The notes beneath the pieces are model-generated. The model did not search any database and was not told where the DNA came from. It worked only from the letters and a program-made list of their open reading frames with translations. DNA of 29,213 bases from an uncultured Deferribacteres bacterium (lineage in GTDB: Bacteria; Zhuqueibacterota; Zhuqueibacteria; Zhuqueibacterales; Geothermadaptataceae): assembly GCA_964014485.1 (NCBI GenBank), contig CAXHAT010000092.1:1-29213 (forward strand), given 5' to 3'. Numbering within the stretch: the first letter of the stretch is position 1; each line of letters opens with the position of its first letter. The position numbers were made by a program, and so were the translations under genes. Shown piece after piece: positions 3,091 to 29,213 of this stretch.

Positions 3091-3435
3091 TTACGCAAAG
3101 CTGGCGACGGCCTCGTCTTCTTCCTCGAACGCTTCAATCACATGGTCAAGCTTGGCGATTTTGATCAAGCTCAAAACGCGACTGTTCAAGTTCACAAGCT
3201 TGCAGGCCTTGCTAATATCTCTTGCCATGCGTACGCCAAACAGAATCGCACCCAAGCCGGAGCTGTCGGCGTACTCAACTTTTTCCAAGTCGATCAAAAC
3301 GCCCTTCTCCGATGCATTCAGCAAATCAATAAGCTTCGCTTTGAGATCCGGAGCCAAGCTCGTGTCCAGGCGCTCGCTTTTCAAACGGATAATGTTGATT
3401 TGTTGGTCGTTCATCGATTCAACGCTGAGATTCAT
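3091..3435 (-). CDS. STAS-domain anti-sigma factor antagonist (SpoIIAA/RsbV-like)
   Basis: RLDTSLAPDLK...LIDLEKVEYADSSGLGAIL carries the phosphorylatable Ser of the DSSG motif. ATG 3435 is preceded by GGAG. Confidence 0.92.
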   Translation of the reverse strand: MNLSVESMNDQQINIIRLKSERLDTSLAPDLKAKLIDLLNASEKGVLIDLEKVEYADSSGLGAILFGVRMARDISKACKLVNLNSRVLSLIKIAKLDHVIEAFEEEDEAVASFA

Positions 3436-3448
3436 GTCGTTCTCCAAG

Positions 3449-14841: not shown

Positions 14842-15819
14842 TTAGCCTATAGCCAGCTTTTCCAGCGCGCGTTTGATCAGGTTTTTGGTGAGTTGGATTT
14901 TGTAGCCGTTTTGCGACAAAGGTTCGGCGCTGGCAACAGCCGCCGAGGCCGCTTTTTCGACCGCCGCCGAACTCAATTCCTTGCCGTTCAATTCCGCGTC
15001 CGCTTCTTCCGCCGCCCAGGGAATCGGCGCGACGCCGCCAAGCACGATTTTGGCCTGCTTGACGCGCGCCCCATCCATCTGCAGCACCGCCGCCACGCTG
15101 CTCACGGCAAAATCCAGCGATTGTTTTTCGCGGAATTTTACGTAAGTCGAGCGCGTCCCTTTCGGCTGCTCCGGGACTTTGATTTTGGTGATGAATTGAT
15201 TGGCGCGCAAAATATTTTCGCGCCTTAAATTGTCTTCCGGCAGTTCGAAAAATTCATCCAAACCGTAATCTTCCGCACCAGAGGCGCCCATGACTTCAAC
15301 GCTAGCGCCCAAAGCTTGTAGCGCCGGAGCGGAGTCTGACGGATGCACAATGTAGCTCGGCCCGCCGCCGAAAATGGCGTGGTACTTGTTCAAGCCTTCC
15401 GCCGCGTAGCATTTCGGTCCGCCTTTTTTCAAGCAATCATATTCCAGCCCCCGATAATACCAGCAACGCGGACGCTGGCAAAGATTGCCGCCAATCGTGC
15501 CCATGTTGCGCAACTGTGGCGTGGCGATGGAAAACGCCGCTTCCGCCAGTACGGGATACTTTTCGCGAACGCTTTTGTGTTCCGCGATTTCCGCAATCGT
15601 TGTCAAGGCGCCGATCTCCAGGCCCTTGCCGTTTTTAACGCCGTCCATCCCTTTGATTTCCTTGATGTTGATAACGCGCTGCGGTCGGTCGATCCGTTCT
15701 TTCAAACGGTCGAGCAAGTCGGTGCCGCCCGCGAGAATGACCGCTTCGCCCCATTTTCTGCTTAACAGCCCCGGCACGTCCTGCAACGTTTTCGGGGTGA
15801 CATATTCAAAATTGACCAT
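14842..15819 (-). CDS. Xanthine dehydrogenase family FAD-binding subunit, PaoB/YagS type with a [4Fe-4S] insertion
   Basis: AGGTDLL, ATPQLRNMGTIGGNL, CQRPRCWYYR...CLKKGGPKCYA (4 Cys), HPSD and LGGVAPIPW. Confidence 0.93.
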   Translation of the reverse strand: MVNFEYVTPKTLQDVPGLLSRKWGEAVILAGGTDLLDRLKERIDRPQRVINIKEIKGMDGVKNGKGLEIGALTTIAEIAEHKSVREKYPVLAEAAFSIATPQLRNMGTIGGNLCQRPRCWYYRGLEYDCLKKGGPKCYAAEGLNKYHAIFGGGPSYIVHPSDSAPALQALGASVEVMGASGAEDYGLDEFFELPEDNLRRENILRANQFITKIKVPEQPKGTRSTYVKFREKQSLDFAVSSVAAVLQMDGARVKQAKIVLGGVAPIPWAAEEADAELNGKELSSAAVEKAASAAVASAEPLSQNGYKIQLTKNLIKRALEKLAIG

Positions 15820-15821
15820 GA

Positions 15822-17924
15822 TCAACCCTCCTTTCCGGCCAGAGCGTTCAAGACTTTGTCCGGCGTCATCGGCAGCTCGCGCAGCCGTACGCCGATGGCA
15901 TTGTAGACCGCGTTGGCAACCGCCGCCGAGGTCGGGATGGTCGGCGGTTCGCCAATTCCCATCACGCCGCGTTCCGCTTCATCGTAAAAAATGACTTCGA
16001 TTTCCGGCGTTTCAAGCACGCCGCAGATTTTGTAATCTTCAAAATTGGGATTGATAATCGTGCCGGTAATCGGGTCCATGATGCGATCTTCGTAAAGCGC
16101 ATAGCTGACGCCCTGAATCACCGCGCCGTTGACCTGGCTTTCCGTGGTCAGACGATCCAGAATCAACCCGCAATCTGCAACCGCGACGACTTTTTCGACG
16201 GTGATGCGCCCGGTGTAAGTATCGACAGCAACTTGCGCGAACTGACAGCCCGCGACGCCGCGATCGGAAAGTCCCTCGCTCCATTCGCCGTGAACGGTCA
16301 AAGGATCGTCGCCAATCATCGCACACAATTCTTTCCAGCCGACGGATTTGCCGTTGGCGCTGGCTTTTTTGCCGGCAAAACTAACCGCATCAACCGAAGC
16401 GCCCAAATGCTTCGCGGCGATTTCAGTGAGTTTTTCTTTCGCCAACTCAGCCGTATTTTTGATTGCCGGAGCAACCGAAGGTACGGTCGTGCTGCCGCCG
16501 GAACCGCCGGAAAACGGAAAATCACTTTCGCCGAGCATCGGTTTTATGTCGTGAATTTCCAGCCCGAGCACTTCCGCCGTGATCGCAGCGACGTAGGTGC
16601 GCGTCCCAGTGCCAATGTCCTGGGTGCCGCATTTCACTTCGATGGAGCCGTCCGGGTAGATCGTCATTTCCGCCTTTGTGCCGCGCCCTGGAACAGCCCA
16701 CATGCTCGCGCCGAGGCCTACGCCGCGCTTAATTGAGCCGGACTCGCTGCTTGGCGCCGTGCGCTTGCTCCAACCGATTTTTTCCGCCCCGATGCGCCAC
16801 TCTTTTTGGCGCGTTTCGTTCGGGTCATTTTTCAGCCGAAATTCCAGCGGATCGACGCCAAGCTTGTGCGCCAATTCATCCATCGCCTGCTCCATGGCAA
16901 AGCAGCCTTGCGGACGACCGGGCGCGCGGAAGGCTCTCGACGCTCCGGCATTGGTCGCTACATCGCGATGCGTCACTTTCCGGTTCGGAATTTCATAAAC
17001 AAAAGGCAGGGTCACGCCTGCGCCGCGACCAACACCGGCGGTGCCGTAAGTTTCAGCCTGAAATGCAGTCAATTTGCCGGCGCTGTTTGCACCGATTTTG
17101 ACTTTCGACAAGCTGTCCGGACGATTGCCGCCGCTGGAAAAATCCTGTTTGCGCGAAAGCATCAATTTGACCGGCGTTCCCGTTTTTTTCGCCAAATCCG
17201 CCGCGACCGCCGTGTAAAGTCCCGCCTGCAATTTGCTGCCAAAGCCCGCGCCCATGTGGTGGCAAATGACATGAACTTTATTCTCGGGAATTTCAAGAAA
17301 CTGCGCCACGCCGCGACGTACGCCGTGTACGGCTTGCGTCGAATCCCAAATATAAAGGTCATCACCGCGCCACTCTACCATGCTGCCGTGAACTTCCAGA
17401 CAGGAGTGCGTTTGCACTTGCGTGCGATAAGTTGCCTCAACAACCTGCGCCGCTTCAGCGAATCCAGCTTCAATATCGCCTTCGGCGCGTTCACGCGGTT
17501 CTTCCGCAATATTCGGTCTTTGCGCAAACGCTCTTGGTGCGTTTGCCTGCATCGCGGCGTCAAGTTCAGCGGCGAATGGCAAAACGTCATACTCGATTTC
17601 GAAAAGTTCGAGAGCGTCTTCTAAAACTTGCGGAGAGGTTGCTGCAACGGCGGCGATGTATTGCCCGGCGAAATGGATCGAGTCGTTGTTGCGAATGTCC
17701 GTCACAACCGCTTTCACGCCCGGGAGCGCTTCAACTTTGCTTGTGTCGATATTGAGCACTTTGGCGGAAGGATGCGGCGAGGAAATGATCGCGCCGTAGA
17801 GCATGTTTTGCGGCTTGAGATCGTAGGTGTACTTTGCCTTGCCGGTGACTTTCTCAGGCCCGTCCAAACGCGGGTAGCGCTTGCTCAAAATCTCCATTTT
17901 TTCCAGAGGTTTCCAGTTAGCCAT
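15822..17924 (-). CDS. Xanthine dehydrogenase family molybdopterin-binding subunit (PaoC/YagR-like)
   Basis: RLDGPEKVTGKAKY, MGAGFGSK, AFRAPGRPQ, QDIGTG, SQVNGAVIQG and the catalytic GIGEPP. Confidence 0.95.
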   Translation of the reverse strand: MANWKPLEKMEILSKRYPRLDGPEKVTGKAKYTYDLKPQNMLYGAIISSPHPSAKVLNIDTSKVEALPGVKAVVTDIRNNDSIHFAGQYIAAVAATSPQVLEDALELFEIEYDVLPFAAELDAAMQANAPRAFAQRPNIAEEPRERAEGDIEAGFAEAAQVVEATYRTQVQTHSCLEVHGSMVEWRGDDLYIWDSTQAVHGVRRGVAQFLEIPENKVHVICHHMGAGFGSKLQAGLYTAVAADLAKKTGTPVKLMLSRKQDFSSGGNRPDSLSKVKIGANSAGKLTAFQAETYGTAGVGRGAGVTLPFVYEIPNRKVTHRDVATNAGASRAFRAPGRPQGCFAMEQAMDELAHKLGVDPLEFRLKNDPNETRQKEWRIGAEKIGWSKRTAPSSESGSIKRGVGLGASMWAVPGRGTKAEMTIYPDGSIEVKCGTQDIGTGTRTYVAAITAEVLGLEIHDIKPMLGESDFPFSGGSGGSTTVPSVAPAIKNTAELAKEKLTEIAAKHLGASVDAVSFAGKKASANGKSVGWKELCAMIGDDPLTVHGEWSEGLSDRGVAGCQFAQVAVDTYTGRITVEKVVAVADCGLILDRLTTESQVNGAVIQGVSYALYEDRIMDPITGTIINPNFEDYKICGVLETPEIEVIFYDEAERGVMGIGEPPTIPTSAAVANAVYNAIGVRLRELPMTPDKVLNALAGKEG

Positions 17925-17927
17925 AAC

Positions 17928-18566
17928 TTAACCTCCTTTCTTCATGGTTTTGGCCGCGGCGTCGATGGCCTCAAAAACTTTCGGGTAGGTGCCGCAGCGG
18001 CAGAGATTGCCTGAAACGCCGACTTTGATTTCGTCCATCGTCGGATTGGGATTTTGTTGCAACAAAGCGGTTCCGGCCATGACGAATCCCGGCGTACAGA
18101 AGCCGCACATCAGCGCGTCCTTTTCAGCGAACTCTGACTGCAAAGCCGTGAGTTCTTCGCCGTCCGCCAAGCCTTCCACCGTGGTAATTTCCTTGTCCCG
18201 AGCGTCGAGCGCCAGCGTCATACAAGACAGTTTTGCCTTGCCGTCGATAATGACGGTGCAGGCGCCGCACTGCCCGCGATCACAAACTTCTTTTGCGCCG
18301 GTCAACTCCAAATTTTCCCGCAAGGCGCTCAAAAGCGTGGTGCGCGGCTCCACTTCAACGCTGCGCATTTGTTTGTTGATCTTTAATCGGATGGTGTTGG
18401 AACCGGAAATCGTGTCCGCTTCCGCCCCCAGGATTTTCTTTTTGGTTTCTTCCGCCAGCAAGCCGGTGTGCGGCAGGGTAGCAACTCCGGCAACGCCGCC
18501 GCCCATGCCTTTCAAAAACTTCCGGCGCGAAATTCCGCCCGCCGCGCCGTTTTTCTCTTTCGCCAT
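17928..18566 (-). CDS. 2x[2Fe-2S] subunit with a twin-arginine (Tat) signal (PaoA/YagT-like)
   Basis: ATG 18566 has a GAGGTGA SD. ISRRKFLK Tat motif, CDRGQCGAC...C, CGFCTPG and NLCRCGTY. Confidence 0.95.
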   Translation of the reverse strand: MAKEKNGAAGGISRRKFLKGMGGGVAGVATLPHTGLLAEETKKKILGAEADTISGSNTIRLKINKQMRSVEVEPRTTLLSALRENLELTGAKEVCDRGQCGACTVIIDGKAKLSCMTLALDARDKEITTVEGLADGEELTALQSEFAEKDALMCGFCTPGFVMAGTALLQQNPNPTMDEIKVGVSGNLCRCGTYPKVFEAIDAAAKTMKKGG

Positions 18567-18615
18567 GCCTTCACCTCTAACAGCCGTTACCCAGCAAAAT
18601 TGAAATTGTTTAAAA

Positions 18616-18644
18616 AGGCTATAAAAAGAATCGAGGGAAGTCAA
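18616..18644 (-). promoter_or_regulatory. Possible sigma-70 promoter for the molybdoenzyme operon
   Basis: The minus strand reads TTGACT - 17 nt - TAGCCT, ~50 nt upstream of ATG 18566. Confidence 0.45.
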
Positions 18645-18910
18645 GGACTTTGCGCCAACGCTCAAATTTTACCTTTAAGTGACAAGCCTGCTTTCCGTTT
18701 TGAGCCTGCATTGTCGATATGTTACAATCGTAGAAAAATTCTGACGTACCCTGCACCATGGGCATGAAATTTCTTCGAGAAATGCGTCGAATTTTCCTAT
18801 CCTTGTCGAAAATAACCCTTCCTTGAAATACTGGGGTCATTGATTTTCGTCGACAACCGCCGCTTTTGCAGATCACTTGACACACGGGCACGGGACAGAG
18901 GAGCAAAGAA

Positions 18911-21900
18911 ATGACAAGGATCACATTGCTGCGACAGGCAATATTCTTTTTTTTGTGCATTTTATCATTGCCAAACGTCGCTTTCGCGCAATTCACGCCG
19001 CCGACAAACTCGCCGATTGATCAATCGCAACATCCGAGAATTTTTCTCACCAATTCAGAACTGCCGGCCATTCGAGGCAAGATCGAGAATCATTATTCGC
19101 AAGATTTTCAGATTTTTCTCGATCACATGGACGACCTTTATGCGACGGCGGCAGGGGCCGGGGATTTCGCAGATTGGAACGACATTTTTGGCGGCATGCG
19201 CGCCTACGCATTTTTGGGGCTGATCGATCCAGCCACAATTTCCGGCGCATCAGCCGATCATAATGCGAACGATTACACGCAAAAAGCGATAGAAATGGCG
19301 CTCTACGTCGCGGCTAACTTGCCGGACGATTGGACAGAGCCGCACGAGAGCGCACGAAATATGACCACAGGCAAAGGCGGTCTTGCGAGCCTCGCGCTGC
19401 AGGTTGTTTACGACTGGACATACGCATCTTCGAGCGCCAACGACCGCACACAAATCGTGGATCGCCTGATCACGATGTGGGACAACAAGTACGATTCAGA
19501 CAAGGTCAAGCTTGAAAACCACTACGCCGCCAACGTGCATGTTTACGGCGCCGCGCTTTGTTTTTACGGCGATTCCGGTCTGACCCAGGCCCAGCAAGAC
19601 AAAGCGCAGTTAATGATGGATTCTTTCGTCGACGTTTTTGAAACGCGACAACTCGCCGTGGCGGAGCGCATTTTTGCGGGCTCCAGCGATTGGGTTGAGG
19701 GCGATCAATACATGTTCGACGGCTTCTCCGGGATTTTGCTTTTGGCCGCAGCCGCAGGCAGCGCTCTGGATATTGATTATTTCTCCGGCAATGCCTGGAT
19801 TCGACATACGCCGGAATTTTTGTATTTCAACATCATGCCCAAACCTTACCAGGGGCAGCATTTTTTTCGTCAACAAAACACCAGCACCGTCGCTTTCGTC
19901 AACCAGCGTTACGCTTCGTCGGTGATGAATATTCTGGCGGCGGAACTCGTCGATTCCAATCCAGATCTCGCAGGGCTGGCGGCGTGGTTTTGCGAAACAA
20001 GCCAGTACGGCGTCCTGGTTGACGGCTACTCATCCTACAAATCTCACATTTACGACGTTTTTTACAAATTTCTGTTCGGTACGCGGCAAGTCCCCCAGAA
20101 ATCGCCCAACGCAGCCAATGTGCCGCTGAGCATGCAGTTGGGACAAATGCACGCCATGCGCTCCGAACACGTGAGCGACGACGCGACGTTGATTCAATTT
20201 TTTACGCCGACCTACTGGTATCACAACGGTCACAACGAGGAAGAACAAGGCGGTTTTACGCTGCATCGCTTTGGTCCGCTGGCGGTCAGCGCTTCGAATA
20301 CGAAAAACGCCGGAGACGGCATTCCGCGCGTGACTAGCGGCAAGGGTTTCTCCCAAAACAACGTCTTCGCCATCGGGAACGACAATCGGCTCGACGTTGA
20401 AATGGACGCACCCGGCGACGAAGCCGATTCGCCGGAATGGTTTGAACTTGGCGCCGACGCGCACATCGGAACCGTCGACGCTTACGAGCATGTTGCGGGA
20501 GAATTTGACTACATCAACTACGACTACTCTCGCAGCTACAAGGGCGGCACAAAAACGAGCCTGGCCCGGCGCGAATTGCTCTATTTACGCGGCCAGGTTA
20601 ATGAAGAATTCGTCGTCGTTCTGGATCGTGTTGATTCGAATCTGGAAAAACATTTCATCCTGCACACGGCGGGCGACCAGGAAGCGATTGGCGACAGTTG
20701 GGCTTCGGACGGCGCCGGAAAATGGGTGACGACGGCGCGTTCGATCAGCCTGGAAAATCGCATTGACCAGGCACACGGCAAAATGTTCCTGACCTCGGTA
20801 TTTCCAAACGACGTTTCCCTTCACAAATTCGGCGGGCCGGGTTATGAATGGGTCTGGCCGGACGGCGAGCCTTTAAATTACGATCCATCTGATTTCAGCG
20901 ACAAGGCGACTTATCTTTTAAGCGATCACACGTTGCAAATTCGCTCGCAGGGCAACCAGTTTCTCACCGTGATGCAAATCGGCGACGCCAACACGCTGAC
21001 GCAGGCCGACAATGTTGCTGCGCTTTCGGGAACAGGTTGGAAAGGAACGTTTCTGGCTGAAAAAAACGTCGTGCTGTTCAGCGAAAATGAGACTTTGCTT
21101 CAAACAGCGACTTACACGATTTCTTCAACGCAATCCGTTCGTCACGTTCTCTGCGAGTTCGAAAAAAACGCATCTTTCACAGTCACAAGGGACGGGCAGA
21201 CCATTGCTTCCGGCAATACCGGCCCGAACGGCGTCGTCTTTTTCTCCGACGCGCCCGGCGGGCAGGCGGAGTACCATGTTTCAACAGACGGCGGCGGCGT
21301 TTTGACTTCCCCGGATGCGCCGACGAATTTGAATGCAAGTGCAGTCAGTTCGACGCAAATTGCGCTTGCTTGGCAGGATAACGCTGACAATGAATCAGGT
21401 TTCAAAATCGAACGGCACGCCGGAGATAACAATTTTGTTGAAGTCGCTTCGGTCGGCCAGAACGTCACGAGTTTCACGGACGTTAGCCTGACGCCAGGCA
21501 CGAGCTATACTTATCGTGTGCTTGCTTACAACAGCGCCGGAGAGTCAGGGTTTTCAAACGAATCCTCCGCGACAACGGACGCACCGCCTCCCCCTCCCGA
21601 CGCGCCGTCCAATTTAGCGGCAGCGGCAAACGGCAGCACTGAAATTGATTTGAGTTGGAATGACAACGCCAATGATGAAGACGGCTTCAAAATTGAGCGT
21701 CATGCAGGAGACGGAAATTTTGCCGAAGTTGCGCAGCTTGGAGCGAATGTAACCAGCTTCAACGACGCCGGTCTGGACGGCGGAGTCACCTACACTTATC
21801 GCATTTTTGCATTCAATTTTTCTGGAAATTCCGGTTTTTCAAACGAAGTTTCAGCAACGACGGACGCACCTCCGCCGCCGCCCGCAACACCGACCGGTTT

Positions 21901-24900
21901 GGTCGCGACAACGTTCAGCAGCTCTTCCATCGGTTTGGATTGGAATGATAACTCAAGCAACGAGACCGGCTTCCGGATTGAGCGTCATTCCGGCGACGGG
22001 AATTTTGCCGAAATTGTGCAGGTCGGGCCGGGCGCGACAAGCTACGACGACCTGGGTTTATCCGCAGCCGTCACTTACACCTATCGCGTTTTTGCGTTCA
22101 ACGGCTCCGGCGACTCGAATCCTTCCAACGAAGCTTCGGCGACAACGGACGACCCGCCCGCGGGCGACTGCACCGAAGGCAATCTTTCTCAGGGGGCGTC
22201 AGCGACAGCTTCGACCAGCGAAGACGGCGCGCCGACAGAGAGCATCGATGGAAATTTTGATACATACTGGCGAAGCGGAGAAACGCAGTCTGGAACGGCG
22301 GAATGGTTGAGCGTCGATCTTGGGCAATTGACGCCGATTGACAGCTTGCACGTCGCTTGGCGCGATAAGAATTATGCGAGAAGCTACGAAGTTCAGGTTT
22401 CTGAAACAGGATCAATGTGGAACGTCATTCTCTCGATGAGCAAGTCTGACGACGAGCCGGATGACTTGCAATTCGAAAGCGTTTCCGCGCGCCATGTCCG
22501 TCTTTATCTGCTCGAAAGCAATAAAGCCCACTATAAAATCGACGAATTTGAGGTTTACGGCTGCTCCGATAACGGCGGCGGCGCAACGGCCCCGGCTACG
22601 CCTTCCGGACTTTCGGCGACTCCGACCGCAAATCAGCGAATTGAATTGAGCTGGAACGACAATTCCAGCAATGAAAGCGGATTTAAAATTGAACGACGCG
22701 AGGAGAGTCAAAGCTTTGTCCAGATCGCGCAAGTTGCAGCGAACGTCACGAGCTACAGCGATGCCGGGGTAAGTGAAAATGTGGCCTACACTTATCGCGT
22801 CAGAGCGACGAATAACGAGGGAGACTCCGGCTATTCAAACGAAGCCTCAGCGACGATTTCATCGAGCCAAAATCTGGTGCGCGGCCCGTACTTGCAGATG
22901 GGCGCACCGACAAGCATGACGATCAGATGGCGCACCGACCAAGCGACAAACAGTCGCGTGGAATTTGGTCTCTCGGCAGGCAATTTGAACATGACCGTGG
23001 ACAGCCTGAGCAGTCGAACGGAGCATGTTGTCGTGCTTTCCGGCCTGTCGCCGAACACGACCTATTATTATTCGATTGGCTCGACCGGCTCCATCTTCGT
23101 TTCAGGCGGAGATTATTTTTTCAAAACCAACCCGACCGACGGAACGCGTCAGACGTCTCGCATTTGGATTATTGGCGATTCCGGCGAAGGCAACCAAAAC
23201 GCGATCAACGTTCGCGACGCCTACAAGACGCACACCGGATCGACGCACACCAATCTCTGGGTCATGCTCGGCGATAATGCCTACGACGACGGCACGGACG
23301 CGGAATACCAAACGGCCATGTTCGACATGTACCCGGAAATGCTGCGCAAGTCCGTCGTCTGGCCCGCATTCGGAAATCACGACGGAGCCAGCGCCGATTC
23401 GCCGGATGAATCAGGCGTTTTTTACGACATTTTTTCTCTGCCAAGAAACGCGGAATCGGGCGGCGTTGCCAGCGGAACGGAAGCGTATTATTCGTTTAAT
23501 TACGCCAACATCCATTTTGTCTGCCTGAACTCGCACGATATTCCGCGCGGGGTTGATGATCCCATGCTCACCTGGCTGGAAGGCGATCTGGCGGCGAATA
23601 CGCTGGATTGGGTTGTCGCTTTTTGGCACCATCCCCCTTATTCAAAAGGCTCGCATGATTCCGACCTGGAGGATCATGAAACTGAAATGCGGGAAAATGC
23701 ACTGCCAATTTTGGAAAATTATGGTGTTGATTTGGTCTTCACTGGTCACAGTCATTCCTACGAGCGCTCATACTTGCTCGACGGTCATTACGGCAACTCG
23801 TTGAGCCTGCTGCCCGAACATAAACTCGATGACGGCGATGGTCGCGAAGACAGCGACGGCGCTTACAGCAAGCCGGTTTTGGGGCCTTCTTCGCACGACG
23901 GCGCCGTTTACGTCGTTGCCGGAAACGCCAGCAAAACCAGCAGCGCGCCGCTGGATCATCCTGCGATGTATTATTCAGTTCAAGCCCTCGGCTCCATCGT
24001 CCTTGACGTTGACGGCGGCAAAGCGGACGTGACGTACATCGATGACACGGGCGCCGTTCGCGATTATTTCACCATTCAAAAAGGCGGCGGCGCGTCTAAC
24101 CCGCCGCAAGCGCCGACGGCTCTAAGCGCAACGGCAAACGGTTCATCGGAGATTGATTTGAGCTGGACGGATAATTCCAACGATGAAGACGGTTTTAAAA
24201 TTGAGCGGCACGACGGCGACGGCAATTTTGCCGAAATCGCGCAAGTCGGGGCGGGCGATACCAGTTACAATGACGCCGGATTAAGCGGCGGCACAACCTA
24301 CTCTTATCGCGTACGCGCTTTTAACAACGCCGGGAATTCGAGCTACTCAAATGAAGCGGCCGCGACCACTGAACCGGTGACAGCGCCGCCCGCCGATCCA
24401 GACAATCTCGCGGCAACGGCAAACAGTTCGGCGGAGATTGATTTGAGTTGGAACGATAACTCGAACGACGAAACCGGCTTCAAAATTGAGCGCCACGACG
24501 GCGACGGCAATTTTGCCGAAATCGCACAAGTCGGCACAGGCGTGACAAGCTATGACGACACGGGTTTGAACAGCGGGACAACCTACACTTACCGCGTTCG
24601 AGCATTTAACGGCGCAGGAAATTCAGGCTACTCGAACGAAACATCAGCCACCACGGACGCTCCGCCTCCCGCCGATCCGAGTAATCTTACAGCAACGGCG
24701 AACGGCGCTTCTCAGATCGATTTGAACTGGGACGACAACTCGAACGACGAAACCGGCTTCAAAATCGAGCGCCATGACGGCGACGGCAATTTTGCCGAAA
24801 TCGCACAGGTTGGCGCGGGCGCGGCAAGCTATGACGACACGGGTTTGAACAGCGGAACAACCTACACTTACCGCGTACGTGCATTTAACGGCGCAGGAAA

Positions 24901-25681
24901 TTCAGGCTATTCAAACGAAGCTTCCGCCACGACGGACAACACGGGCGGCGGCGATCCGAACGTCAATTTGGCGCTGAACCAGCCGACGACGGCTTCGACG
25001 ACTGACAAGGACGCGTCGCCCGATGACGCAACCGACGGCGACGAAAACAGCTTCTGGGAAAGTCGCTCAGCGCAAGAAGGCGTTCCGGAGTGGCTGCAGG
25101 TTGATCTCGGCGGCTCCGAAACAATCAACCGGGCGGTTATCGCGTGGAGGGCCAAGAGTTATGCGGCGAGCTTTGAAGTTCAGGTTTCTAACGATCAAAC
25201 TGCGTGGTCAACGGTTGTTAGCGCGACTCGGAGCGATGAAGGGACGGACGACTTCACATTTCCGGAGGTGAGCGCACGTTACGTCCGCGTTCTAATGCTC
25301 GAGAAAAAGAAGTCAACTTTCCAGGTCGAAGAATTTGAGGTTTACGGAGGCGGCCCCGGAGGCCTTGTCGCCAAGCCCGTGGATCGCGGCGGCGTTGCAA
25401 AGCCTGAGATCGCGCCAAATGTATTTTCACTGCACCAAAATTATCCCAACCCATTTAACCCGGAGACGCGGATTCAATTTAGCTTGCCGCAAAACGCACA
25501 TGTAAAGATCACCGTTTACACGCTTCTGGGCAAAGCCGTCGCCGTGATTGCCGACGCGCCGTTTCAACGCGGCTCACATTCGATAACATTCAATGCAGGA
25601 CGATTGCCCAGCGGCATTTACCTGTATCGGATGGATGCGGGATCGTTCAGTGACATGAAACGGATGATCTTGATGCGGTAG
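18911..25681 (+). CDS. Large secreted multidomain protein: signal peptide, heparinase II/III-like domain, 3xFN3, CBM32/discoidin, FN3, purple acid phosphatase-type metallophosphoesterase, 3xFN3, CBM32/discoidin, C-terminal sorting domain
   Basis: GAGGAG SD and a signal peptide ending ...NVAFA. HPRIFLT, WVEGDQY, GHNEEEQGGFTLHRFGPLA and VVVLDRV are heparinase II/III-like. Seven W.DN..(N/D)E.GF.IER FN3 units. Two WL.VDLG...ARxVR discoidin units. PAP motifs GDSG, GDNAY, GNHD, FWHHPPY and GHSH. Tail LHQNYPNPFNPET...SGIYLYR. Confidence 0.9.
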   Translation: MTRITLLRQAIFFFLCILSLPNVAFAQFTPPTNSPIDQSQHPRIFLTNSELPAIRGKIENHYSQDFQIFLDHMDDLYATAAGAGDFADWNDIFGGMRAYAFLGLIDPATISGASADHNANDYTQKAIEMALYVAANLPDDWTEPHESARNMTTGKGGLASLALQVVYDWTYASSSANDRTQIVDRLITMWDNKYDSDKVKLENHYAANVHVYGAALCFYGDSGLTQAQQDKAQLMMDSFVDVFETRQLAVAERIFAGSSDWVEGDQYMFDGFSGILLLAAAAGSALDIDYFSGNAWIRHTPEFLYFNIMPKPYQGQHFFRQQNTSTVAFVNQRYASSVMNILAAELVDSNPDLAGLAAWFCETSQYGVLVDGYSSYKSHIYDVFYKFLFGTRQVPQKSPNAANVPLSMQLGQMHAMRSEHVSDDATLIQFFTPTYWYHNGHNEEEQGGFTLHRFGPLAVSASNTKNAGDGIPRVTSGKGFSQNNVFAIGNDNRLDVEMDAPGDEADSPEWFELGADAHIGTVDAYEHVAGEFDYINYDYSRSYKGGTKTSLARRELLYLRGQVNEEFVVVLDRVDSNLEKHFILHTAGDQEAIGDSWASDGAGKWVTTARSISLENRIDQAHGKMFLTSVFPNDVSLHKFGGPGYEWVWPDGEPLNYDPSDFSDKATYLLSDHTLQIRSQGNQFLTVMQIGDANTLTQADNVAALSGTGWKGTFLAEKNVVLFSENETLLQTATYTISSTQSVRHVLCEFEKNASFTVTRDGQTIASGNTGPNGVVFFSDAPGGQAEYHVSTDGGGVLTSPDAPTNLNASAVSSTQIALAWQDNADNESGFKIERHAGDNNFVEVASVGQNVTSFTDVSLTPGTSYTYRVLAYNSAGESGFSNESSATTDAPPPPPDAPSNLAAAANGSTEIDLSWNDNANDEDGFKIERHAGDGNFAEVAQLGANVTSFNDAGLDGGVTYTYRIFAFNFSGNSGFSNEVSATTDAPPPPPATPTGLVATTFSSSSIGLDWNDNSSNETGFRIERHSGDGNFAEIVQVGPGATSYDDLGLSAAVTYTYRVFAFNGSGDSNPSNEASATTDDPPAGDCTEGNLSQGASATASTSEDGAPTESIDGNFDTYWRSGETQSGTAEWLSVDLGQLTPIDSLHVAWRDKNYARSYEVQVSETGSMWNVILSMSKSDDEPDDLQFESVSARHVRLYLLESNKAHYKIDEFEVYGCSDNGGGATAPATPSGLSATPTANQRIELSWNDNSSNESGFKIERREESQSFVQIAQVAANVTSYSDAGVSENVAYTYRVRATNNEGDSGYSNEASATISSSQNLVRGPYLQMGAPTSMTIRWRTDQATNSRVEFGLSAGNLNMTVDSLSSRTEHVVVLSGLSPNTTYYYSIGSTGSIFVSGGDYFFKTNPTDGTRQTSRIWIIGDSGEGNQNAINVRDAYKTHTGSTHTNLWVMLGDNAYDDGTDAEYQTAMFDMYPEMLRKSVVWPAFGNHDGASADSPDESGVFYDIFSLPRNAESGGVASGTEAYYSFNYANIHFVCLNSHDIPRGVDDPMLTWLEGDLAANTLDWVVAFWHHPPYSKGSHDSDLEDHETEMRENALPILENYGVDLVFTGHSHSYERSYLLDGHYGNSLSLLPEHKLDDGDGREDSDGAYSKPVLGPSSHDGAVYVVAGNASKTSSAPLDHPAMYYSVQALGSIVLDVDGGKADVTYIDDTGAVRDYFTIQKGGGASNPPQAPTALSATANGSSEIDLSWTDNSNDEDGFKIERHDGDGNFAEIAQVGAGDTSYNDAGLSGGTTYSYRVRAFNNAGNSSYSNEAAATTEPVTAPPADPDNLAATANSSAEIDLSWNDNSNDETGFKIERHDGDGNFAEIAQVGTGVTSYDDTGLNSGTTYTYRVRAFNGAGNSGYSNETSATTDAPPPADPSNLTATANGASQIDLNWDDNSNDETGFKIERHDGDGNFAEIAQVGAGAASYDDTGLNSGTTYTYRVRAFNGAGNSGYSNEASATTDNTGGGDPNVNLALNQPTTASTTDKDASPDDATDGDENSFWESRSAQEGVPEWLQVDLGGSETINRAVIAWRAKSYAASFEVQVSNDQTAWSTVVSATRSDEGTDDFTFPEVSARYVRVLMLEKKKSTFQVEEFEVYGGGPGGLVAKPVDRGGVAKPEIAPNVFSLHQNYPNPFNPETRIQFSLPQNAHVKITVYTLLGKAVAVIADAPFQRGSHSITFNAGRLPSGIYLYRMDAGSFSDMKRMILMR
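24104..24935 (+). repeat. Intragenic tandem FN3 repeats (periods 285 and 279 bp); the last two are nearly identical at DNA level
   Basis: TCGAACGACGAAACCGGCTTCAAAAT occurs at 24461 and 24740. CAAGCTATGACGACACGGGTTTGAACAGCGG and GCATTTAACGGCGCAGGAAATTCAGGCTA are repeated exactly. Confidence 0.9.
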
Positions 25682-25697: not shown

Positions 25698-26171
25698 TCA
25701 GTTTCTTGCAGTAACCGAAATTAGATCTTGGGGAGAAATGGCCGCGGTAAGAGGAGATGCAGGAGAGAGCATATCCCGAACGGTAATATTGTTCAGGATT
25801 TGATCGATGTTGAATTGTAAGACTTGCCACAAAGAGCGAATGGAACAATCGATTGAATTTGTGCAAAGCTTTTTAAGTCCCGCGTGGTTTTCGCAAAACT
25901 CATCGTTATAAAGCTGCCCGCCCAAATCTTTTAAAACCTCGCCAAGAACGATTTTCTCCGGCGCCCGCGAGAGCGTGTAGCCGCCGTCCTTGCCGCGATT
26001 GCTCTTGATGTAGCCGCCCAGGCGCAATATGCGGCAAAGCTTGGCCACATTGGCCGCCGAAAGCCCTTCGGACTGGCTGATTTCAGGAATCGGAACGCCC
26101 GCCGTTTCCGGTGCGCGGGCGATCCGAAGCAAAATTCTCAATCCGTATTCTTCTTGAGCAGTGATTTTCAT
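25698..26171 (-). CDS. Rrf2-family transcriptional regulator, probably Fe-S binding
   Basis: MKITAQEEYGLRIL, winged-HTH SNRGKDGGYTLSRAPEKI, and C-terminal FCENHAGLKKLCTNSIDC (3 Cys). Confidence 0.92.
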   Translation of the reverse strand: MKITAQEEYGLRILLRIARAPETAGVPIPEISQSEGLSAANVAKLCRILRLGGYIKSNRGKDGGYTLSRAPEKIVLGEVLKDLGGQLYNDEFCENHAGLKKLCTNSIDCSIRSLWQVLQFNIDQILNNITVRDMLSPASPLTAAISPQDLISVTARN

Positions 26172-26213
26172 CGCAAAAGTTGAGTTTTAAGCTCATTCTT
26201 GCAGCCTGAAGAC

Positions 26214-26279
26214 TGGACTACAAACGGCAGAGCTTTATTAACTCTCGGAATAGAAGAATGCTCAGTCGTTTGTAGTCCA
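26214..26279. repeat. REP-like inverted repeat pair (CTAC/GTAG)
   Basis: TGGACTACAAACGGCAGAGC (26214-33) and GCTCAGTCGTTTGTAGTCCA (26260-79) are 20-nt arms with 2 mismatches. Confidence 0.7.
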
Positions 26280-26333
26280 CTTTAGCGTGTCTTTGTATAT
26301 ATCATACCTTGAGGCTGACTTAAGGTTATCGTA

Positions 26334-26879
26334 CTAATTATTGCCGTTAAACATCGGAATTTTGGACCCGCAAGCGCGGGCGTGCTGCACTTTGGCAAAA
26401 TCTTCCGGCGCGATGGAAGGCCCGGGACGCTCGCAATGCTCTTCAAAAGCTTGCACCAAAATCTCGGCGATCTGTCCGGCGTTGCGGCCTTCGATTTCAT
26501 AGCGGTGCAGCATAAAAACAACCTCGCCGTTTTTGAACAACGCCATGCATGGAGATGACGGCGGAAACTGGCCCAAATGCTCGCGACGAAGACGATCAAC
26601 GGCCAACTTTTCTTGCCCGGCGAAAACCGTGGTCAGCTTGTCTGGAATGACGCTGTTCTGCAAAGCCATCGAAGCGCCGGGACGCGCACTGCCGGCCGCG
26701 CAGCCGCAAACAGAGTTGACCATGACGAATACCGTCTGATCCGGGCTGTTTGAAATGGCGTCGTCAACATCTTCCGAGGTCATCAATTCTTCAAAGCCAA
26801 CCGCGACAAGTTCGTCACGCATCGGTTGAACGGCAAAGGGATCATAAGTCGGTTGTGCGGATATGGGGAATTGCGTCAT
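26334..26879 (-). CDS. BrxA/BrxB family bacilliredoxin (YphP/YqiW-like) with a C-terminal extension
   Basis: PMRDEL..GFEEL, VNSVCGCAAGSARP, TVFAGQEK.A, PPSSP.MALFKNG and RYEIEGR. Confidence 0.92.
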   Translation of the reverse strand: MTQFPISAQPTYDPFAVQPMRDELVAVGFEELMTSEDVDDAISNSPDQTVFVMVNSVCGCAAGSARPGASMALQNSVIPDKLTTVFAGQEKLAVDRLRREHLGQFPPSSPCMALFKNGEVVFMLHRYEIEGRNAGQIAEILVQAFEEHCERPGPSIAPEDFAKVQHARACGSKIPMFNGNN

Positions 26880-26926
26880 TTTTGTTCTCTCACGTTTATT
26901 TTTGAACACCAATATTTGTAATCAAC

Positions 26927-26953
26927 GTCATTCCCGCGCAGGCGGGAATCCAG
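26927..26953. repeat. Short palindromic repeat of the ATTCCC-N8-GGGAAT (dRS3/RPE-like) type
   Basis: GTCATTCCCGCGCAGGCGGGAATCCAG, with a second copy at 29161-29187. Confidence 0.85.
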
Positions 26954-26974
26954 TGCATTTTTAAAGATGTCAAT

Positions 26975-27002
26975 GGCCAAGAGCTAAAAGCCAACAGCCC
27001 AA
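26975..27002. repeat. Degenerate heptamer tandem repeat (4 units)
   Basis: GGCCAAG-AGCTAAA-AGCCAAC-AGCCCAA directly after the sufT stop codon. Confidence 0.5.
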
Positions 27003-27004
27003 AA

Positions 27005-27361
27005 TCAAAACATATTCAACTCAAGCTTCGCGGCTTCGCTCATCATGTCCGGGTTCCACGGCGGATCCCAAACGACTTCCACTTTTGCCACGTTAACGCC
27101 CTCAACGCTCTGCACTCTGTCCTCGACTTCCGGCGGCAGACTTCCCGCAACCGGACACATGGGCGAGGTGAGCGTCATCTCAACATCGACGTTATTTTCG
27201 TCGTCCACGTCAATGCTGTAAATCAGGCCGAGGTCATAAATGTTCACCGGAATCTCCGGATCGTAGCACATTTGGATGGCCTTGACGACCTCCATTTGCA
27301 ATACGAGCTTATCCTTATCAAACGACGTTTCTTGCACTGCATCAGCGGCTGCTTCTGACAT
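27005..27361 (-). CDS. sufT: SUF-associated Fe-S assembly protein (DUF59/MIP18, SufT/PaaD-like)
   Basis: YDPEIPVNIYDLGLIY, MTLTSPMCPVAGSLP and VWDPPWNPDMMSEAAKLEL. Confidence 0.9.
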   Translation of the reverse strand: MSEAAADAVQETSFDKDKLVLQMEVVKAIQMCYDPEIPVNIYDLGLIYSIDVDDENNVDVEMTLTSPMCPVAGSLPPEVEDRVQSVEGVNVAKVEVVWDPPWNPDMMSEAAKLELNMF

Positions 27362-27373
27362 TTGCCAATCCTC

Positions 27374-27838
27374 TTATTCTGTTGAAACGACTTTGCTTTC
27401 GTTATCTTTTTTTTCCATCGCGGCGATAGCTGTGTGCCAAGCCAGGCTGGCGCATTTAACACGCGAGGGATATTCTCGCACGCCGGAAAAAACGGCAAGT
27501 TTGCCCAAGGCCGCCGCATCAATTTCTTCAGACGGTTCAGCCGTAATCATTTCTTGAAATTTATCAAAAATTTCTTTCGCTTCAGCAAGAGACTTGCCTT
27601 TCAAAATCGTCGTCATCACCGAAGCCGACGCCTTCGAAATGGCACAACCGGCGCCTTCGAATCGCACATCTTTGATCACGCCTTGTTCGACGTCCAAATC
27701 AAGACTGAGCTTGTCGCCGCACAACGGGTTGTAACCGTCCGCTTCATGCGAGGGCGCTTCAAGCGCGCCATAATTCTTCGGGTTTTTGTTGTGATCCAGA
27801 ATGATTTGCTGATACAAATCACGCATGCCGCCGTCCAT
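27374..27838 (-). CDS. sufU: SUF system NifU-like sulfur-transfer protein SufU
   Basis: LYQQIILDH.KNP.N.G, NPLCGD, GCAISKASAS and RVKCA.L.W. Its ATG overlaps the sufS stop (ATGA). Confidence 0.93.
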   Translation of the reverse strand: MDGGMRDLYQQIILDHNKNPKNYGALEAPSHEADGYNPLCGDKLSLDLDVEQGVIKDVRFEGAGCAISKASASVMTTILKGKSLAEAKEIFDKFQEMITAEPSEEIDAAALGKLAVFSGVREYPSRVKCASLAWHTAIAAMEKKDNESKVVSTE

Positions 27839-29112
27839 CAGCGAAACACCTCGATAATTTTCCGTAATCCCGCCGCCAAACGATCCAATTCTTCTCTCGT
27901 GTTGTAAAGCGCCAGCGAAGCTCGCGTCGTCGCGGGAATGTTGTAGCGATCCATCACCGGCTGAGTGCAATGATGCCCGGTGCGAACCGCAATCCCGTCG
28001 TGATCGAGCATCGTGCCAATATCATGCGGATGCACGTCTTCAACCACAAACGACAGGACGCCCGCCTTGTTTTTCGCCGTTCCGATCATGCGTACGCCGT
28101 CGATTTCCGAGATCGTTTTTTCGCCGTATGCGAGCAAGTCACATTCATGCTTTTGAATGCGTTCGTACCCAACTTTTTCAATATATTTCAACGCTTCCGA
28201 GAGCGCTATGCCGTCGGCAATATTCGGCGTGCCCGCTTCGAATTTATAAGGCAGTTCGTTGAAAGTCGTTTTTTCAAAAGTGACCGAAAGAATCATGTCG
28301 CCGCCGCCCTGGTAGGGTGGCATTTTGTCGAGTAATGCTTCTTTGCCGTAAAGCACGCCGATTCCGGTCGGGCCAAAAACTTTGTGACCGGAAAAAGCGA
28401 GAAAATCACAATCCAGTTCCTGCACGTCGACCGCCAGATGCGGCAGGGCTTGCGCAGCGTCGAGAAGCACCGGGATCTCGCGTTCGTGCGCTGCTTGAAT
28501 CATTTCACGCACCGGATTGACCGTGCCGAGCGAGTTCGAGACATAAACGGCGGCAACTAGTTTCGTGCGGTCATTCAAGAGCTTTTCGAACTCTTCGAAG
28601 ATCACGTCGCCGTCGTCGTCAATCGGCGCGATGCGCAATTTTGCGCCTTTTTCTTCACAGAGCAATTGCCAGGGTACAATGTTCGAATGATGCTCCATCC
28701 CTGTGATGACAATCTCGTCGCCCTCGCCGACGTTCGTACGCCCAAAAGTCGCCGCGACCAAATTCACGCTTTCGCTCGTGCCGCGCGTGAAAATGATTTC
28801 CTTTGCAGACTTCGCGTTGATGAATTTTTGAATGAACTTGCGCGAATCTTCATACTTTTTCGTTGCCAATTCGCTCAAGTAATAAACGCCGCGATGAATG
28901 TTCGCATTTTCCGCTTCATAGTATCGACGGATGGCGTCAATCACAACGCGAGGCTTTTGCGTCGTCGCCGCGTTGTCGAGATACGCGAGCGGCTTACCGT
29001 GGACTTCAAGGCTGAGAATTGGAAAATCCGCGCGTATTTTTTCAACGTCGAAGTTCGGTACAGCGCCGTTTGAGGAAACGCTCACGGAAATTTCTTCATC
29101 GAGAGTTTTCAT
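27838..29112 (-). CDS. sufS: Cysteine desulfurase, group II
   Basis: IRADFPIL, YLDNAATTQKP, EHHSN, PLP lysine motif SGHK, EAGTPN and catalytic RTGHHC. Confidence 0.97.
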   Translation of the reverse strand: MKTLDEEISVSVSSNGAVPNFDVEKIRADFPILSLEVHGKPLAYLDNAATTQKPRVVIDAIRRYYEAENANIHRGVYYLSELATKKYEDSRKFIQKFINAKSAKEIIFTRGTSESVNLVAATFGRTNVGEGDEIVITGMEHHSNIVPWQLLCEEKGAKLRIAPIDDDGDVIFEEFEKLLNDRTKLVAAVYVSNSLGTVNPVREMIQAAHEREIPVLLDAAQALPHLAVDVQELDCDFLAFSGHKVFGPTGIGVLYGKEALLDKMPPYQGGGDMILSVTFEKTTFNELPYKFEAGTPNIADGIALSEALKYIEKVGYERIQKHECDLLAYGEKTISEIDGVRMIGTAKNKAGVLSFVVEDVHPHDIGTMLDHDGIAVRTGHHCTQPVMDRYNIPATTRASLALYNTREELDRLAAGLRKIIEVFR

Positions 29113-29160
29113 TAACACGCACTCAAAAGTTGTGCATTGATTAAAAAAGCGCGTCGCTTT

Positions 29161-29213
29161 GTCATACCCGCGCAGGCGGGTATCCAGACAACGACGCCCC
29201 AAAGCTGGATACC
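29161..29213. repeat. Second dRS3/RPE-like palindrome plus the start of its inverted partner, truncated by the window end
   Basis: GTCATACCCGCGCAGGCGGGTATCCAG (29161-87), then CTGGATACC (29205-13), which is the reverse complement of its 3' end. Confidence 0.85.

What the first reader, a model, noticed from the sequence alone, without database searches (positions are those of the whole stretch)
18911..25681. 2256-aa secreted two-enzyme assembly: heparinase II/III-like lyase fused to a purple acid phosphatase, each followed by an FN3x3-CBM32 stalk
Seen: one uninterrupted ORF organised as [lyase-like ~18990-21290]-[FN3x3 ~21310-22150]-[discoidin ~22180-22560]-FN3-[PAP ~22875-24080]-[FN3x3 ~24100-24935]-[discoidin ~24965-25350]-[NYPNPFNP sorting domain]. 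All five PAP metal-ligand motifs are intact (DxG, GDxxY, GNHD, xxxH, GHxH). The lyase-like part keeps a Tyr in WVEGDQY and a His in GHN...GGFTLHRFGPLA, resembling the catalytic Tyr/His segments of heparinase II. Known: heparinase II/III folds cleave uronate-containing polysaccharides; PAPs are dinuclear phosphomonoesterases; CBM32 binds sugars. Inference: this is an exported enzyme that both depolymerises and dephosphorylates an anionic glycan (e.g. phosphorylated EPS or a cell-wall polymer), coupling carbon and phosphorus scavenging. I do not know a characterised protein with this combination.
Basis: partly seen in the sequence, partly recalled or inferred. Interest (0 to 1): 0.78.

Follow-up and report, generated by a model that had tools for sequence, protein, structure and literature searches.

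The report
One-off slime-lyase and phosphatase fusion
An uncultured marine bacterium encodes one very long, likely exported protein that joins a predicted sugar-acid-polymer cutter, related to genes in its own slime-making cluster, to a predicted phosphatase; the gene is real, but the pairing turned up only in this genome and looks like domain shuffling, so joint action on one phosphorylated polymer remains untested.

Summary
Residues 27-795 have no Pfam hit but model at pLDDT 95 as heparinase II (Z 40.4, rmsd 3.1 over 657 residues). They keep Asn203-His204, Tyr267 and His441 but fall far below the heparinase II cut-off. All seven PAP ligands are intact. The fusion was found in no other sequence: the lyase occurs in 28 of 167 phylum genomes, all in one order (probably KSB1/Zhuqueibacterota), with frames of at most 1211 aa elsewhere. 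The PAP is a promiscuous module (1124 long proteins), and this genome reuses the FN3/discoidin stalk in 17 ORFs. New here: tail-less members of the lyase family sit in Wzx/Wzy polysaccharide loci with an AlgD-like GDP-mannose dehydrogenase and kinase-fold genes with intact motifs. The fused lyase groups with this genome's own copy from such a locus (96/96; alternative not rejected, p=0.07). The best reading is an exported copy of a self-polysaccharide lyase that gained a general phosphatase by shuffling. Coupled removal of sugar and phosphate from one phospho-polymer is possible (about 20%) but unshown.

The parts
18911..25681 (+). Whole gene, 2256 aa (P0001)
   Evidence: identical product on 3 public contigs
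18911..18988 (+). Likely Sec signal peptide, residues 1-26 (basic N-terminus, hydrophobic core, AFA|Q)
   Evidence: read by eye; no predictor was run; homologues align from residue 27-28 on
18989..21295 (+). Heparinase II-fold (alpha/alpha toroid, beta-sandwich, C-terminal beta domain) lyase-like module, residues 27-795, of an unclassified PL21-like family
   Evidence: profile vs 2fuq E 6e-109; model pLDDT 95.2, pTM 0.94; Foldseek E 3.7e-34, TM 0.71; VIA Z 40.4, rmsd 3.1 over 657
19517..19522 (+). Asn203-His204, predicted carboxylate neutraliser and base (Asn-His pair as in PL15 and PL39)
   Evidence: invariant in 12 of 12 close homologues; equivalence inferred from motif and spacing with Table 4 of PMC12088678, not from a residue-level superposition
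19709..19711 (+). Tyr267, predicted catalytic acid/base (heparinase II Tyr257)
   Evidence: (97 of 105 rows)
20231..20233 (+). His441 (heparinase II His406)
   Evidence: (80 of 103 rows)
21308..22153 (+). FN3 repeats 1-3
22172..22564 (+). F5/8 type C (discoidin, CBM32-like) domain 1; ligand unknown
   Evidence: closest solved chains are chitosanase discoidin domains, E 1.3e-13, then alginate-lyase CBM32
22592..22864 (+). FN3 repeat 4
22874..24076 (+). Purple-acid-phosphatase-type module (PAP_N plus metallophosphoesterase), all seven metal ligands present
   Evidence: motif consensus from PMC7642983 passages
24104..24937 (+). FN3 repeats 5-7 (77-87% identical to each other)
24956..25348 (+). 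F5/8 type C domain 2 (44% identical to domain 1)
25442..25669 (+). T9SS type A C-terminal sorting domain
   Evidence: PF18962 and TIGR04183 above cut-off

Best explanation
This gene encodes one 2256-residue protein in which a heparinase II-fold module and a complete purple-acid-phosphatase-type module sit on an FN3/discoidin stalk; it is likely exported and likely arose in this lineage alone by domain shuffling, the first head predicted to cut a mannuronate-containing polysaccharide of the kind its own lineage makes and the second predicted to release phosphate from general organophosphates, side by side rather than in a fixed sequence. Steps: (1) Sec signal plus sorting domain send it through a SprA/PorV-type system to the surface or medium (inferred; components present). 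(2) The stalk spaces the heads, and the discoidin domains likely hold the protein on a glycan (ligand untested). (3) The first head would cleave by beta-elimination: Asn203/His441 hold the C5 carboxylate, His204 or Tyr267 takes the C5 proton, Tyr267 protonates the leaving sugar (fold shown by model; chemistry inferred from PL21/PL15). (4) The substrate is inferred from the operon of its tail-less sister gene. (5) The dinuclear PAP centre would hydrolyse phosphomono- and perhaps diesters (motifs shown, activity inferred). The fusion would give co-localisation in matrix or particles, not obligatory coupling.
For: Singleton: 28 of 167 phylum genomes have the lyase, all in one order, and of the 52 places listed only the window's frame exceeds 1211 aa (same). 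Only P0001 carries a PAP among the 150 best 50%-representatives. 0 of 84 lyase loci have a PAP in frame or in the flanks. Two word-index searches of long proteins returned only P0001 (weak by the tool's own note). The PAP is promiscuous: 1124 proteins of 1240-3948 aa carry it; the best 120 include M23, arylsulfotransferase, phytase, C25 and beta-helix partners (family names recalled from the Pfam accessions), and none of the 119 others has the lyase. The genome has 17 ORFs on this stalk with varied heads, including PAP+beta-helix and PAP+PAP, and 6 PAP matches, 3 of them in the close clade that occurs in only 3 of 29 order genomes. The lyase is also fused to PKD, beta-helix, PF14099 lyase, PLD and LamG domains elsewhere. 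Substrate: the sister gene (C311, a predicted lipoprotein, 56% identical) follows a GT4 and a dehydrogenase closest to GDP-mannose 6-dehydrogenase (E 2.5e-141 vs 1.4e-65 for UDP-glucose dehydrogenase). 16 of 28 tail-less copies have two or more polysaccharide-locus markers within 9 kb, against 0 of 29 tailed copies. A careful tree joins the fused lyase with C311 at 96/96, and a second genome shows the same pairing at 93/90. A lyase inside a biosynthesis operon has a precedent in AlgL (PMC3815931 passages).
Against: No activity was measured. The AU test does not reject grouping the fused lyase with the tailed copies of two related genera instead (p=0.07), and FastTree flagged the join as long branches meeting. 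The window gives no context: the neighbours are a molybdo-flavoprotein operon and Fe-S assembly genes. Both heads have stayed intact (6 changes at otherwise invariant lyase columns, within the 1-14 range of the other members), which fits independent selection but also coupling. His204 is not conserved in the wider family. 8 of 28 tail-less copies show no markers (several on short contigs), and the loci are phylogenetically non-independent.
Confidence: 0.5

Rival explanations
1. Coupled enzyme: the lineage's polysaccharide is phosphorylated by the kinase-fold genes of its locus, and this protein removes the phosphate and cuts the chain, recovering carbon and phosphorus from its own or its kin's matrix.
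For: APH/protein-kinase-fold genes lie within 9 kb of 15 of 28 tail-less lyase copies and 1 of 29 tailed copies. One kinase family is directly adjacent to the lyase in four genomes. The catalytic HxD..N/H and DF/DW motifs are intact, including in this genome's own two kinases on C197 and C42. The C42-type kinase is in 26 of 29 and the AlgD-like gene in 27 of 29 order genomes. The fused lyase groups with the own-locus copy. The holder runs are marine metagenomes, and the genome has expanded PAPs.
Against: The fusion, or even PAP-lyase adjacency, was found in none of the other 27 genomes with the lyase, most of which also carry the kinases and AlgD-like gene. The close PAP clade is missing from 26 of 29 order genomes. 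The kinases' substrates are unknown. The kinase family that flanks the lyase elsewhere was not found by tblastn in this genome. The PAP fuses freely with unrelated heads.
Confidence: 0.2
2. Scavenger of foreign polyuronides: the exported copy has changed target and attacks animal glycosaminoglycans, alginate or other algal or bacterial uronate polymers, with the PAP as an independent nutrient enzyme.
For: The closest structures are heparinase II, then PL15 and PL17 alginate lyases. The Asn-His pair is as in PL15 exo-heparinase and PL39 alginate lyase (PMC12088678 Table 4). 27 of 29 tailed copies show none of the polysaccharide-locus markers, as exported catabolic enzymes would.
Against: No transporter or other catabolic glycan gene is in the window. 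The HepB model scores 31 bits against a cut-off of 600. Arg261 and the zinc-site residues of heparinase II (residue roles recalled) are replaced. The module is the least basic of 12 close homologues (K+R 6.4% vs 8.2-13.1%), a poor fit for heavily sulfated heparin. The family is confined to one order that shares the biosynthesis locus.
Confidence: 0.15
3. The first head is a C5-epimerase (mannuronate to guluronate type) rather than a lyase, modifying the exported polymer.
For: The same fold includes human dermatan sulfate epimerase (profile E 3e-23; Z 23.9). Lyases and epimerases share the first step (PMC3815931 passage on AlgL). The family sits in biosynthesis loci.
Against: The best structural match by a wide margin is a lyase (Z 40.4 vs 23.9); of the 50 entries listed, only one is an epimerase.
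Confidence: 0.1
4. Assembly artefact: two genes were mis-joined through FN3 repeats.
For: The genome is a fragmented metagenome assembly (465 contigs, N50 32.7 kb) with many similar FN3 repeats, and no listed public contig spans the first FN3 array.
Against: The longest exact repeat in the lyase-PAP linker is 24 nt. The identical protein is on 3 contigs of different length. The lyase has no other tail or stop, and the listed long pieces of the best holder run show no letter differences.
Confidence: 0.03

Closest known systems
Heparinase II (HepB, PL21) of Pedobacter heparinus, PDB 2fuq/3e7j
   Same: Three-domain fold over the whole module (Z 40.4, rmsd 3.1 over 657; TM 0.71); Tyr257 and His406 equivalents present
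   Different: 15% identity; HepB model 31 bits vs cut-off 600. Glu205 has no clear equivalent and an Asn-His pair stands in that region. Arg261 is Gly271. His408/Asp425/His451 (zinc site, recalled) are Glu443/Ser460/Asn483. The family is linked to biosynthesis loci, and this copy is fused to FN3, discoidin and PAP modules.
PL15 (Atu3025 3a0o; exo-heparinase 6lja), PL17, PL39, PL35 lyases
   Same: Toroid plus beta-sandwich fold, Z 22-26.5; Asn/His-Tyr-His catalytic set (PMC12088678, PMC7904915 passages)
   Different: Lower structural scores than heparinase II, 11-15% identity; substrate here unknown
AlgL of the Pseudomonas/Azotobacter alginate operon (PL5)
   Same: Role analogy for the tail-less sister genes: a lyase in an operon with an AlgD-type GDP-mannose dehydrogenase
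   Different: Different family. The loci here use Wzx/Wzy and GT4 enzymes plus kinase-fold genes, and the window's copy is outside the locus and carries a sorting domain.
Purple acid phosphatases (plant 6gja/1kbp; bacterial Rv2577, which has phosphatase and phosphodiesterase activity)
   Same: PAP_N plus metallophosphoesterase with the seven ligands in five motifs
   Different: Distant from solved PAPs (best E 1.7e-18). It belongs to a large bacterial clade embedded in multidomain proteins for which my searches found no characterised member; metal pair, colour and pH optimum untested.
Multi-catalytic secreted enzymes on spacer stalks (e.g. Caldicellulosiruptor CelA, search listing only)
   Same: Two catalytic heads with binding modules in one chain
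   Different: There both heads attack one known substrate; here the heads are a lyase-fold and a phosphatase, with no sign of conservation

Membership tests
PL21 heparinase II | Toroid, beta-sandwich and C-terminal beta domain fold | tested here: met
PL21 heparinase II | Sequence score above the HepB family cut-off (NF045571) | tested here: not met
   31 bits vs 600; no Pfam heparinase hit on P0001
PL21 heparinase II | Catalytic Tyr257 and His406 | tested here: met
   Tyr267 and His441 align ungapped
PL21 heparinase II | His202 and Glu205 | tested here: inconclusive
   The profile places an insertion here; Asn203-His204 is invariant in the close clade; no residue-level superposition was available
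PL21 heparinase II | Structural zinc site His408/Asp425/His451 (residues recalled; paper search found nothing) | tested here: not met
   Glu443, Ser460, Asn483 by count from the aligned motifs
PL21 heparinase II | Cleaves heparin and heparan sulfate | not testable with these tools
   needs an assay
Purple acid phosphatase | Five motifs with seven ligands, including the Tyr of GDxxY | tested here: met
   consensus from PMC7642983
Purple acid phosphatase | N-terminal FN3-like PAP domain before the catalytic domain | tested here: met
   PF16656 at 1326-1406
Purple acid phosphatase | Fe(III)-M(II) centre, purple colour, phosphoesterase activity | not testable with these tools
   needs purified protein
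CBM32 | F5/8 type C discoidin fold | tested here: met
CBM32 | Carbohydrate binding with known ligand residues | tested here: inconclusive
   Closest solved domains bind different ligands and are distant; binding not testable here
T9SS type A cargo | Signal peptide plus C-terminal sorting domain | tested here: met
   (by eye)
T9SS type A cargo | Host encodes the secretion machine | tested here: inconclusive
   SprA, PorV (9 over cut-off) and C25 proteins found; GldN not found, but the control rang nowhere
Conserved bifunctional lyase-phosphatase family | The same pairing recurs in independent genomes | tested here: not met

The most novel reading that the evidence does not exclude
An order of KSB1/Zhuqueibacterota bacteria makes an undescribed kinase-phosphorylated, mannuronate-containing exopolysaccharide served by a new lyase family, and this marine member has exported a copy of that lyase welded to a purple acid phosphatase, giving one enzyme that strips phosphate from and depolymerises its own or its kin's matrix to recycle phosphorus and carbon.
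Probability: 0.2. Interest if true: 0.72.

Novelty: new variant of a known kind. Interest (0 to 1): 0.45.

Why it matters
The fusion itself is probably a local accident of a genome that shuffles heads onto an FN3/discoidin stalk. The firmer result is the first head. It marks an unclassified heparinase II-like family that Pfam misses, with a high-confidence model and a substrate lead from gene context (AlgD-like dehydrogenase, Wzx/Wzy, kinase-fold genes), so a new polysaccharide lyase family and an undescribed polymer of an uncultured phylum become directly testable. If coupling were shown, it would be a clear case of one extracellular enzyme recovering both carbon and phosphorus from a bacterial matrix.

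Tried and rejected
Single-sequence fold: pLDDT 36, unusable. Single-sequence PDB search of the lyase part: nothing below E 0.6. The ESM Atlas could not take the window's own sequence; the homologue P0002 gave heparinase II/III clusters at 0.94, which applies to the homologue. No RNA holder was listed, so there is no evidence on expression either way. Logan contigs are too fragmented to bridge the FN3 arrays; 131 pieces were not shown. One promoter-like site against 0.5 +/- 0.6 expected is not significant. I tested whether the beta-helix fused to the PAP paralog on C212 is the beta-helix that neighbours the lyase in relatives: only 25-28% identical, so not used as evidence. The kinase profile had no PDB match; its assignment rests on motifs and Pfam APH hits of relatives. 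The C197 and C311 contig ends do not overlap; their adjacency is inferred only from gene order in G001. A PF00391 search did not locate the phosphoramidate module noted by an earlier agent; not pursued. Literature: no paper held all of 'purple acid phosphatase', 'polysaccharide lyase', 'fibronectin type III', 'fused'. Searches listed nothing on this pairing or this locus by title or abstract, and searches returned nothing. The library lacks most subscription journals, and no supplements were read. Earlier scan notes by sequence and by words: none. No complex prediction was run, since no binding is claimed. dbCAN/CAZy was not available.
Full report
Observation. The window holds one uninterrupted frame at 18911-25681 (+) giving 2256 aa. 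Pfam finds seven fn3 repeats, two F5/8 type C domains, a PAP N-terminal domain (1326-1406), a metallophosphoesterase (1417-1617) and a sorting domain (2178-2253), and nothing on residues 27-795. The gene stands alone between a divergent molybdo-flavoprotein operon and convergent Fe-S assembly genes; the 20 other ORFs scanned include no glycan transporter or glycan enzyme. Titles of close relatives name KSB1 and Zhuqueibacterota genera among other and vague labels, so the host is probably KSB1/Zhuqueibacterota; the three holder runs are marine metagenomes of one study.

Is it an artefact? The identical protein is recorded on 3 contigs, the longest 51,894 b; these may share reads. The longest exact repeat shared with any other place in the genome is 24 nt in the lyase-PAP linker and 49 nt in the whole gene. 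The best holder run has depth in 30 of 30 bins, and its listed pieces have no letter differences; one piece joins discoidin 1, FN3-4 and the start of the PAP, but no listed piece spans the first FN3 array. I put a mis-join at about 3%.

The first head. An exhaustive HMMER search gave 211 representatives at E up to 0.001. A profile of 108 sequences hits heparinase II at E 6e-109 and PL15 at 1e-41. The model built on that alignment has pLDDT 95.2 and pTM 0.94 and matches heparinase II at Foldseek E 3.7e-34, TM 0.71 and Z 40.4, rmsd 3.1 over 657 residues; the next family scores 26.5. Tyr267 and His441 align with Tyr257 and His406, which PMC12088678 (passages, Table 4) and PMC7904915 (passages) list as catalytic with His202. 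Asn203-His204 is invariant in 12 of 12 close homologues and resembles the Asn-His pair of PL15 exo-heparinase and PL39; His204 varies in the wider family, and its equivalence is inferred. It works like a heparinase II-fold lyase but is not a HepB member: 31 bits against a cut-off of 600, 15% identity, Arg261 and the recalled zinc ligands replaced, and the lowest K+R content of 12 homologues. It does not look decayed: 33 of 41 conserved basic columns are kept, and it has 6 changes at otherwise invariant columns against 1-14 for other members.

The second head. All seven ligands of the consensus given in PMC7642983 (passages) are present. That paper reports both phosphatase and phosphodiesterase activity for a bacterial relative, so the motifs do not fix the substrate. 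The module is promiscuous. 1124 proteins of 1240-3948 aa carry it, and the best 120 show M23 peptidase, arylsulfotransferase, phytase, C25 and beta-helix partners (names recalled from accessions). None of the 119 others has the lyase; the remaining 1004 were not examined. In the order, the close PAP clade (58% identity or more) is in 3 of 29 genomes, with three copies here.

Is the pairing conserved? Not in anything searched. The lyase is in 28 of 40 relatives and in 28 of 167 phylum genomes including this one, all in one order; no other frame among the 52 places exceeds 1211 aa. Only P0001 has a PAP among the 150 best representatives. None of 84 loci (duplicates included; flanks from under 1 kb to 10 kb) has a PAP in frame or nearby. 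Two searches of longer proteins returned only P0001, weak evidence since they also missed long distant relatives seen. Both heads are mobile: the lyase is fused elsewhere to PKD, beta-helix, PF14099 lyase, PLD and LamG domains (36 of 150 scanned), and this genome has 17 ORFs on the same stalk with varied heads, among them PAP+beta-helix (C212), PAP+PAP (C95) and PAP without a second head on its stalk (C271). An earlier agent reached the same shuffling verdict for C212; that is a lead, not independent support.

What the lyase family is tied to. This genome has a second, tail-less copy, a predicted lipoprotein on C311 (56% identical), downstream of a GT4 and a dehydrogenase whose best solved match is GDP-mannose 6-dehydrogenase (E 2.5e-141, against 1.4e-65 for UDP-glucose dehydrogenase). 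In G001 the same order extends to Wzy, GT4, an APH-like kinase, a PL12-like lyase and GT4 upstream and a second kinase downstream; in this genome the matching genes lie on C197 and C380, with adjacency unproven. After dropping fragments under 650 aa and exact duplicates, 61 lyase copies remained. Of 28 tail-less copies, 16 have two or more locus markers within 9 kb, 4 have one and 8 none. Of 29 tailed copies, 27 have none and 2 have one; 4 copies were cut by a contig end. Kinase-fold genes lie near 15 of 28 tail-less and 1 of 29 tailed copies. These rows are kin and not independent. The kinases keep their catalytic motifs. The AlgD-like gene is in 27 of 29 and the C42-type kinase in 26 of 29 order genomes; the AlgD-like gene is also in 31 of 138 genomes outside the order. 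In G001, G010, G013, G017 and G022 the AlgD-like gene lies on the same contig and strand within about 25 kb of a lyase copy. A careful IQ-TREE on 21 selected rows joins the fused lyase with the C311 copy at 96/96 and a tailed G001 copy with that genome's locus copy at 93/90. FastTree on 62 rows gave the first join at 98 with a long-branch warning and did not recover the second. The AU test does not reject the alternative grouping (p=0.07).

Mechanism. Shown: architecture, fold by model, intact motifs, SprA/PorV/C25 genes in the host (GldN not found, control silent), the family's link to a polysaccharide locus, and singleton status in the searches run. Inferred: export; beta-elimination at a uronate, probably mannuronate, of the lineage's own polymer, by analogy with AlgL in the alginate operon (PMC3815931 passages); phosphate release by the PAP. 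I favour parallel action of two heads joined by shuffling (0.5). Coupled action on a phosphorylated polymer (0.2) has real circumstantial support from the kinases, but relatives that keep the locus were not seen to link it to a PAP. Foreign polyuronides (0.15), an epimerase (0.1) and an artefact (0.03) remain.

Novelty and verdict. My searches found no description of this pairing (listings and abstracts only, open-access library) and none of the lyase family's link to this locus; PMC9012183 (passages) treats KSB1 CAZymes at class level and mentions alginate biosynthesis potential in one clade, and its supplements were not read. The parts are known kinds, the combination was seen once, and the lyase family is unclassified: new variant of a known kind.

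Noticed in passing
L033, L042, L044, L078, L103-L116; G000 C311, C197, C380, C42: An order-wide polysaccharide locus combining an AlgD-like GDP-mannose dehydrogenase, GT4s, Wzx, Wzy, two or three APH/protein-kinase-fold genes, two thymidylate-kinase-like P-loop genes (one fused to a nucleotidyltransferase-like domain), a LarA-like racemase, an AMP ligase, WecB, a beta-helix protein and one or two heparinase-fold lyases. It predicts an undescribed, possibly phosphorylated uronate polymer.
   Followed up: partly
L044:7557-8780, L043:5848-7104, L046:7762-8919, L033:7430-8689: A roughly 400-aa kinase-fold family with HGDxKxxH and DFG motifs and no Pfam, NCBIfam or PDB match at the thresholds used, directly adjacent to the lyase gene in four genomes; not found in G000 by tblastn.
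   Followed up: partly
G000 C183, C30, C66, C100, C259, C286 (L005, L006, L007, L009, L011): Further giant FN3/discoidin proteins whose 380-680-residue N-terminal heads have no clear Pfam match (C100 has weak alpha/beta-hydrolase hits); two pairs of heads are paralogous (C183/C286 45%, C66/C259 45%).
   Followed up: no
L053:3917-13707 (G000 C19): Three more distant heparinase II-like genes cluster on one strand with a likely sodium:solute symporter gene (judged by eye from its N-terminus), which looks like a catabolic glycan locus distinct from the family studied here.
   Followed up: no
L038, L039, L040 (X459 family, e.g. L038:7356-8732): A tandem pair of uncharacterised secreted proteins (about 460 aa, and 570-625 aa with a sorting-type tail) follows the tail-less lyase in one genus; no Pfam match for the core.
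   Followed up: no
P0041, P0023, P0016, L081: Other one-off fusions of the same lyase family: with a PLD-like domain, with a PF14099 lyase domain, and with PKD plus beta-helix; one 2119-aa frame lies in a record titled Patescibacteria.
   Followed up: no
window 14842-18665 (-): TAT-signal 2Fe-2S, molybdopterin and FAD subunits of a periplasmic aldehyde/xanthine oxidoreductase-like complex, divergent from the gene.
   Followed up: no
window 25698-29213 (-): Fe-S assembly cluster: cysteine desulfurase, NifU-like, PF01883, PF06491 disulphide isomerase and an Rrf2 regulator.
   Followed up: no
window 679-1437 (+), 3152-3763 (+), 5330-6073 (+): ORFs of 203-252 aa without a Pfam match above cut-off (the first has a weak DNase II hit, E 0.007).
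   Followed up: no
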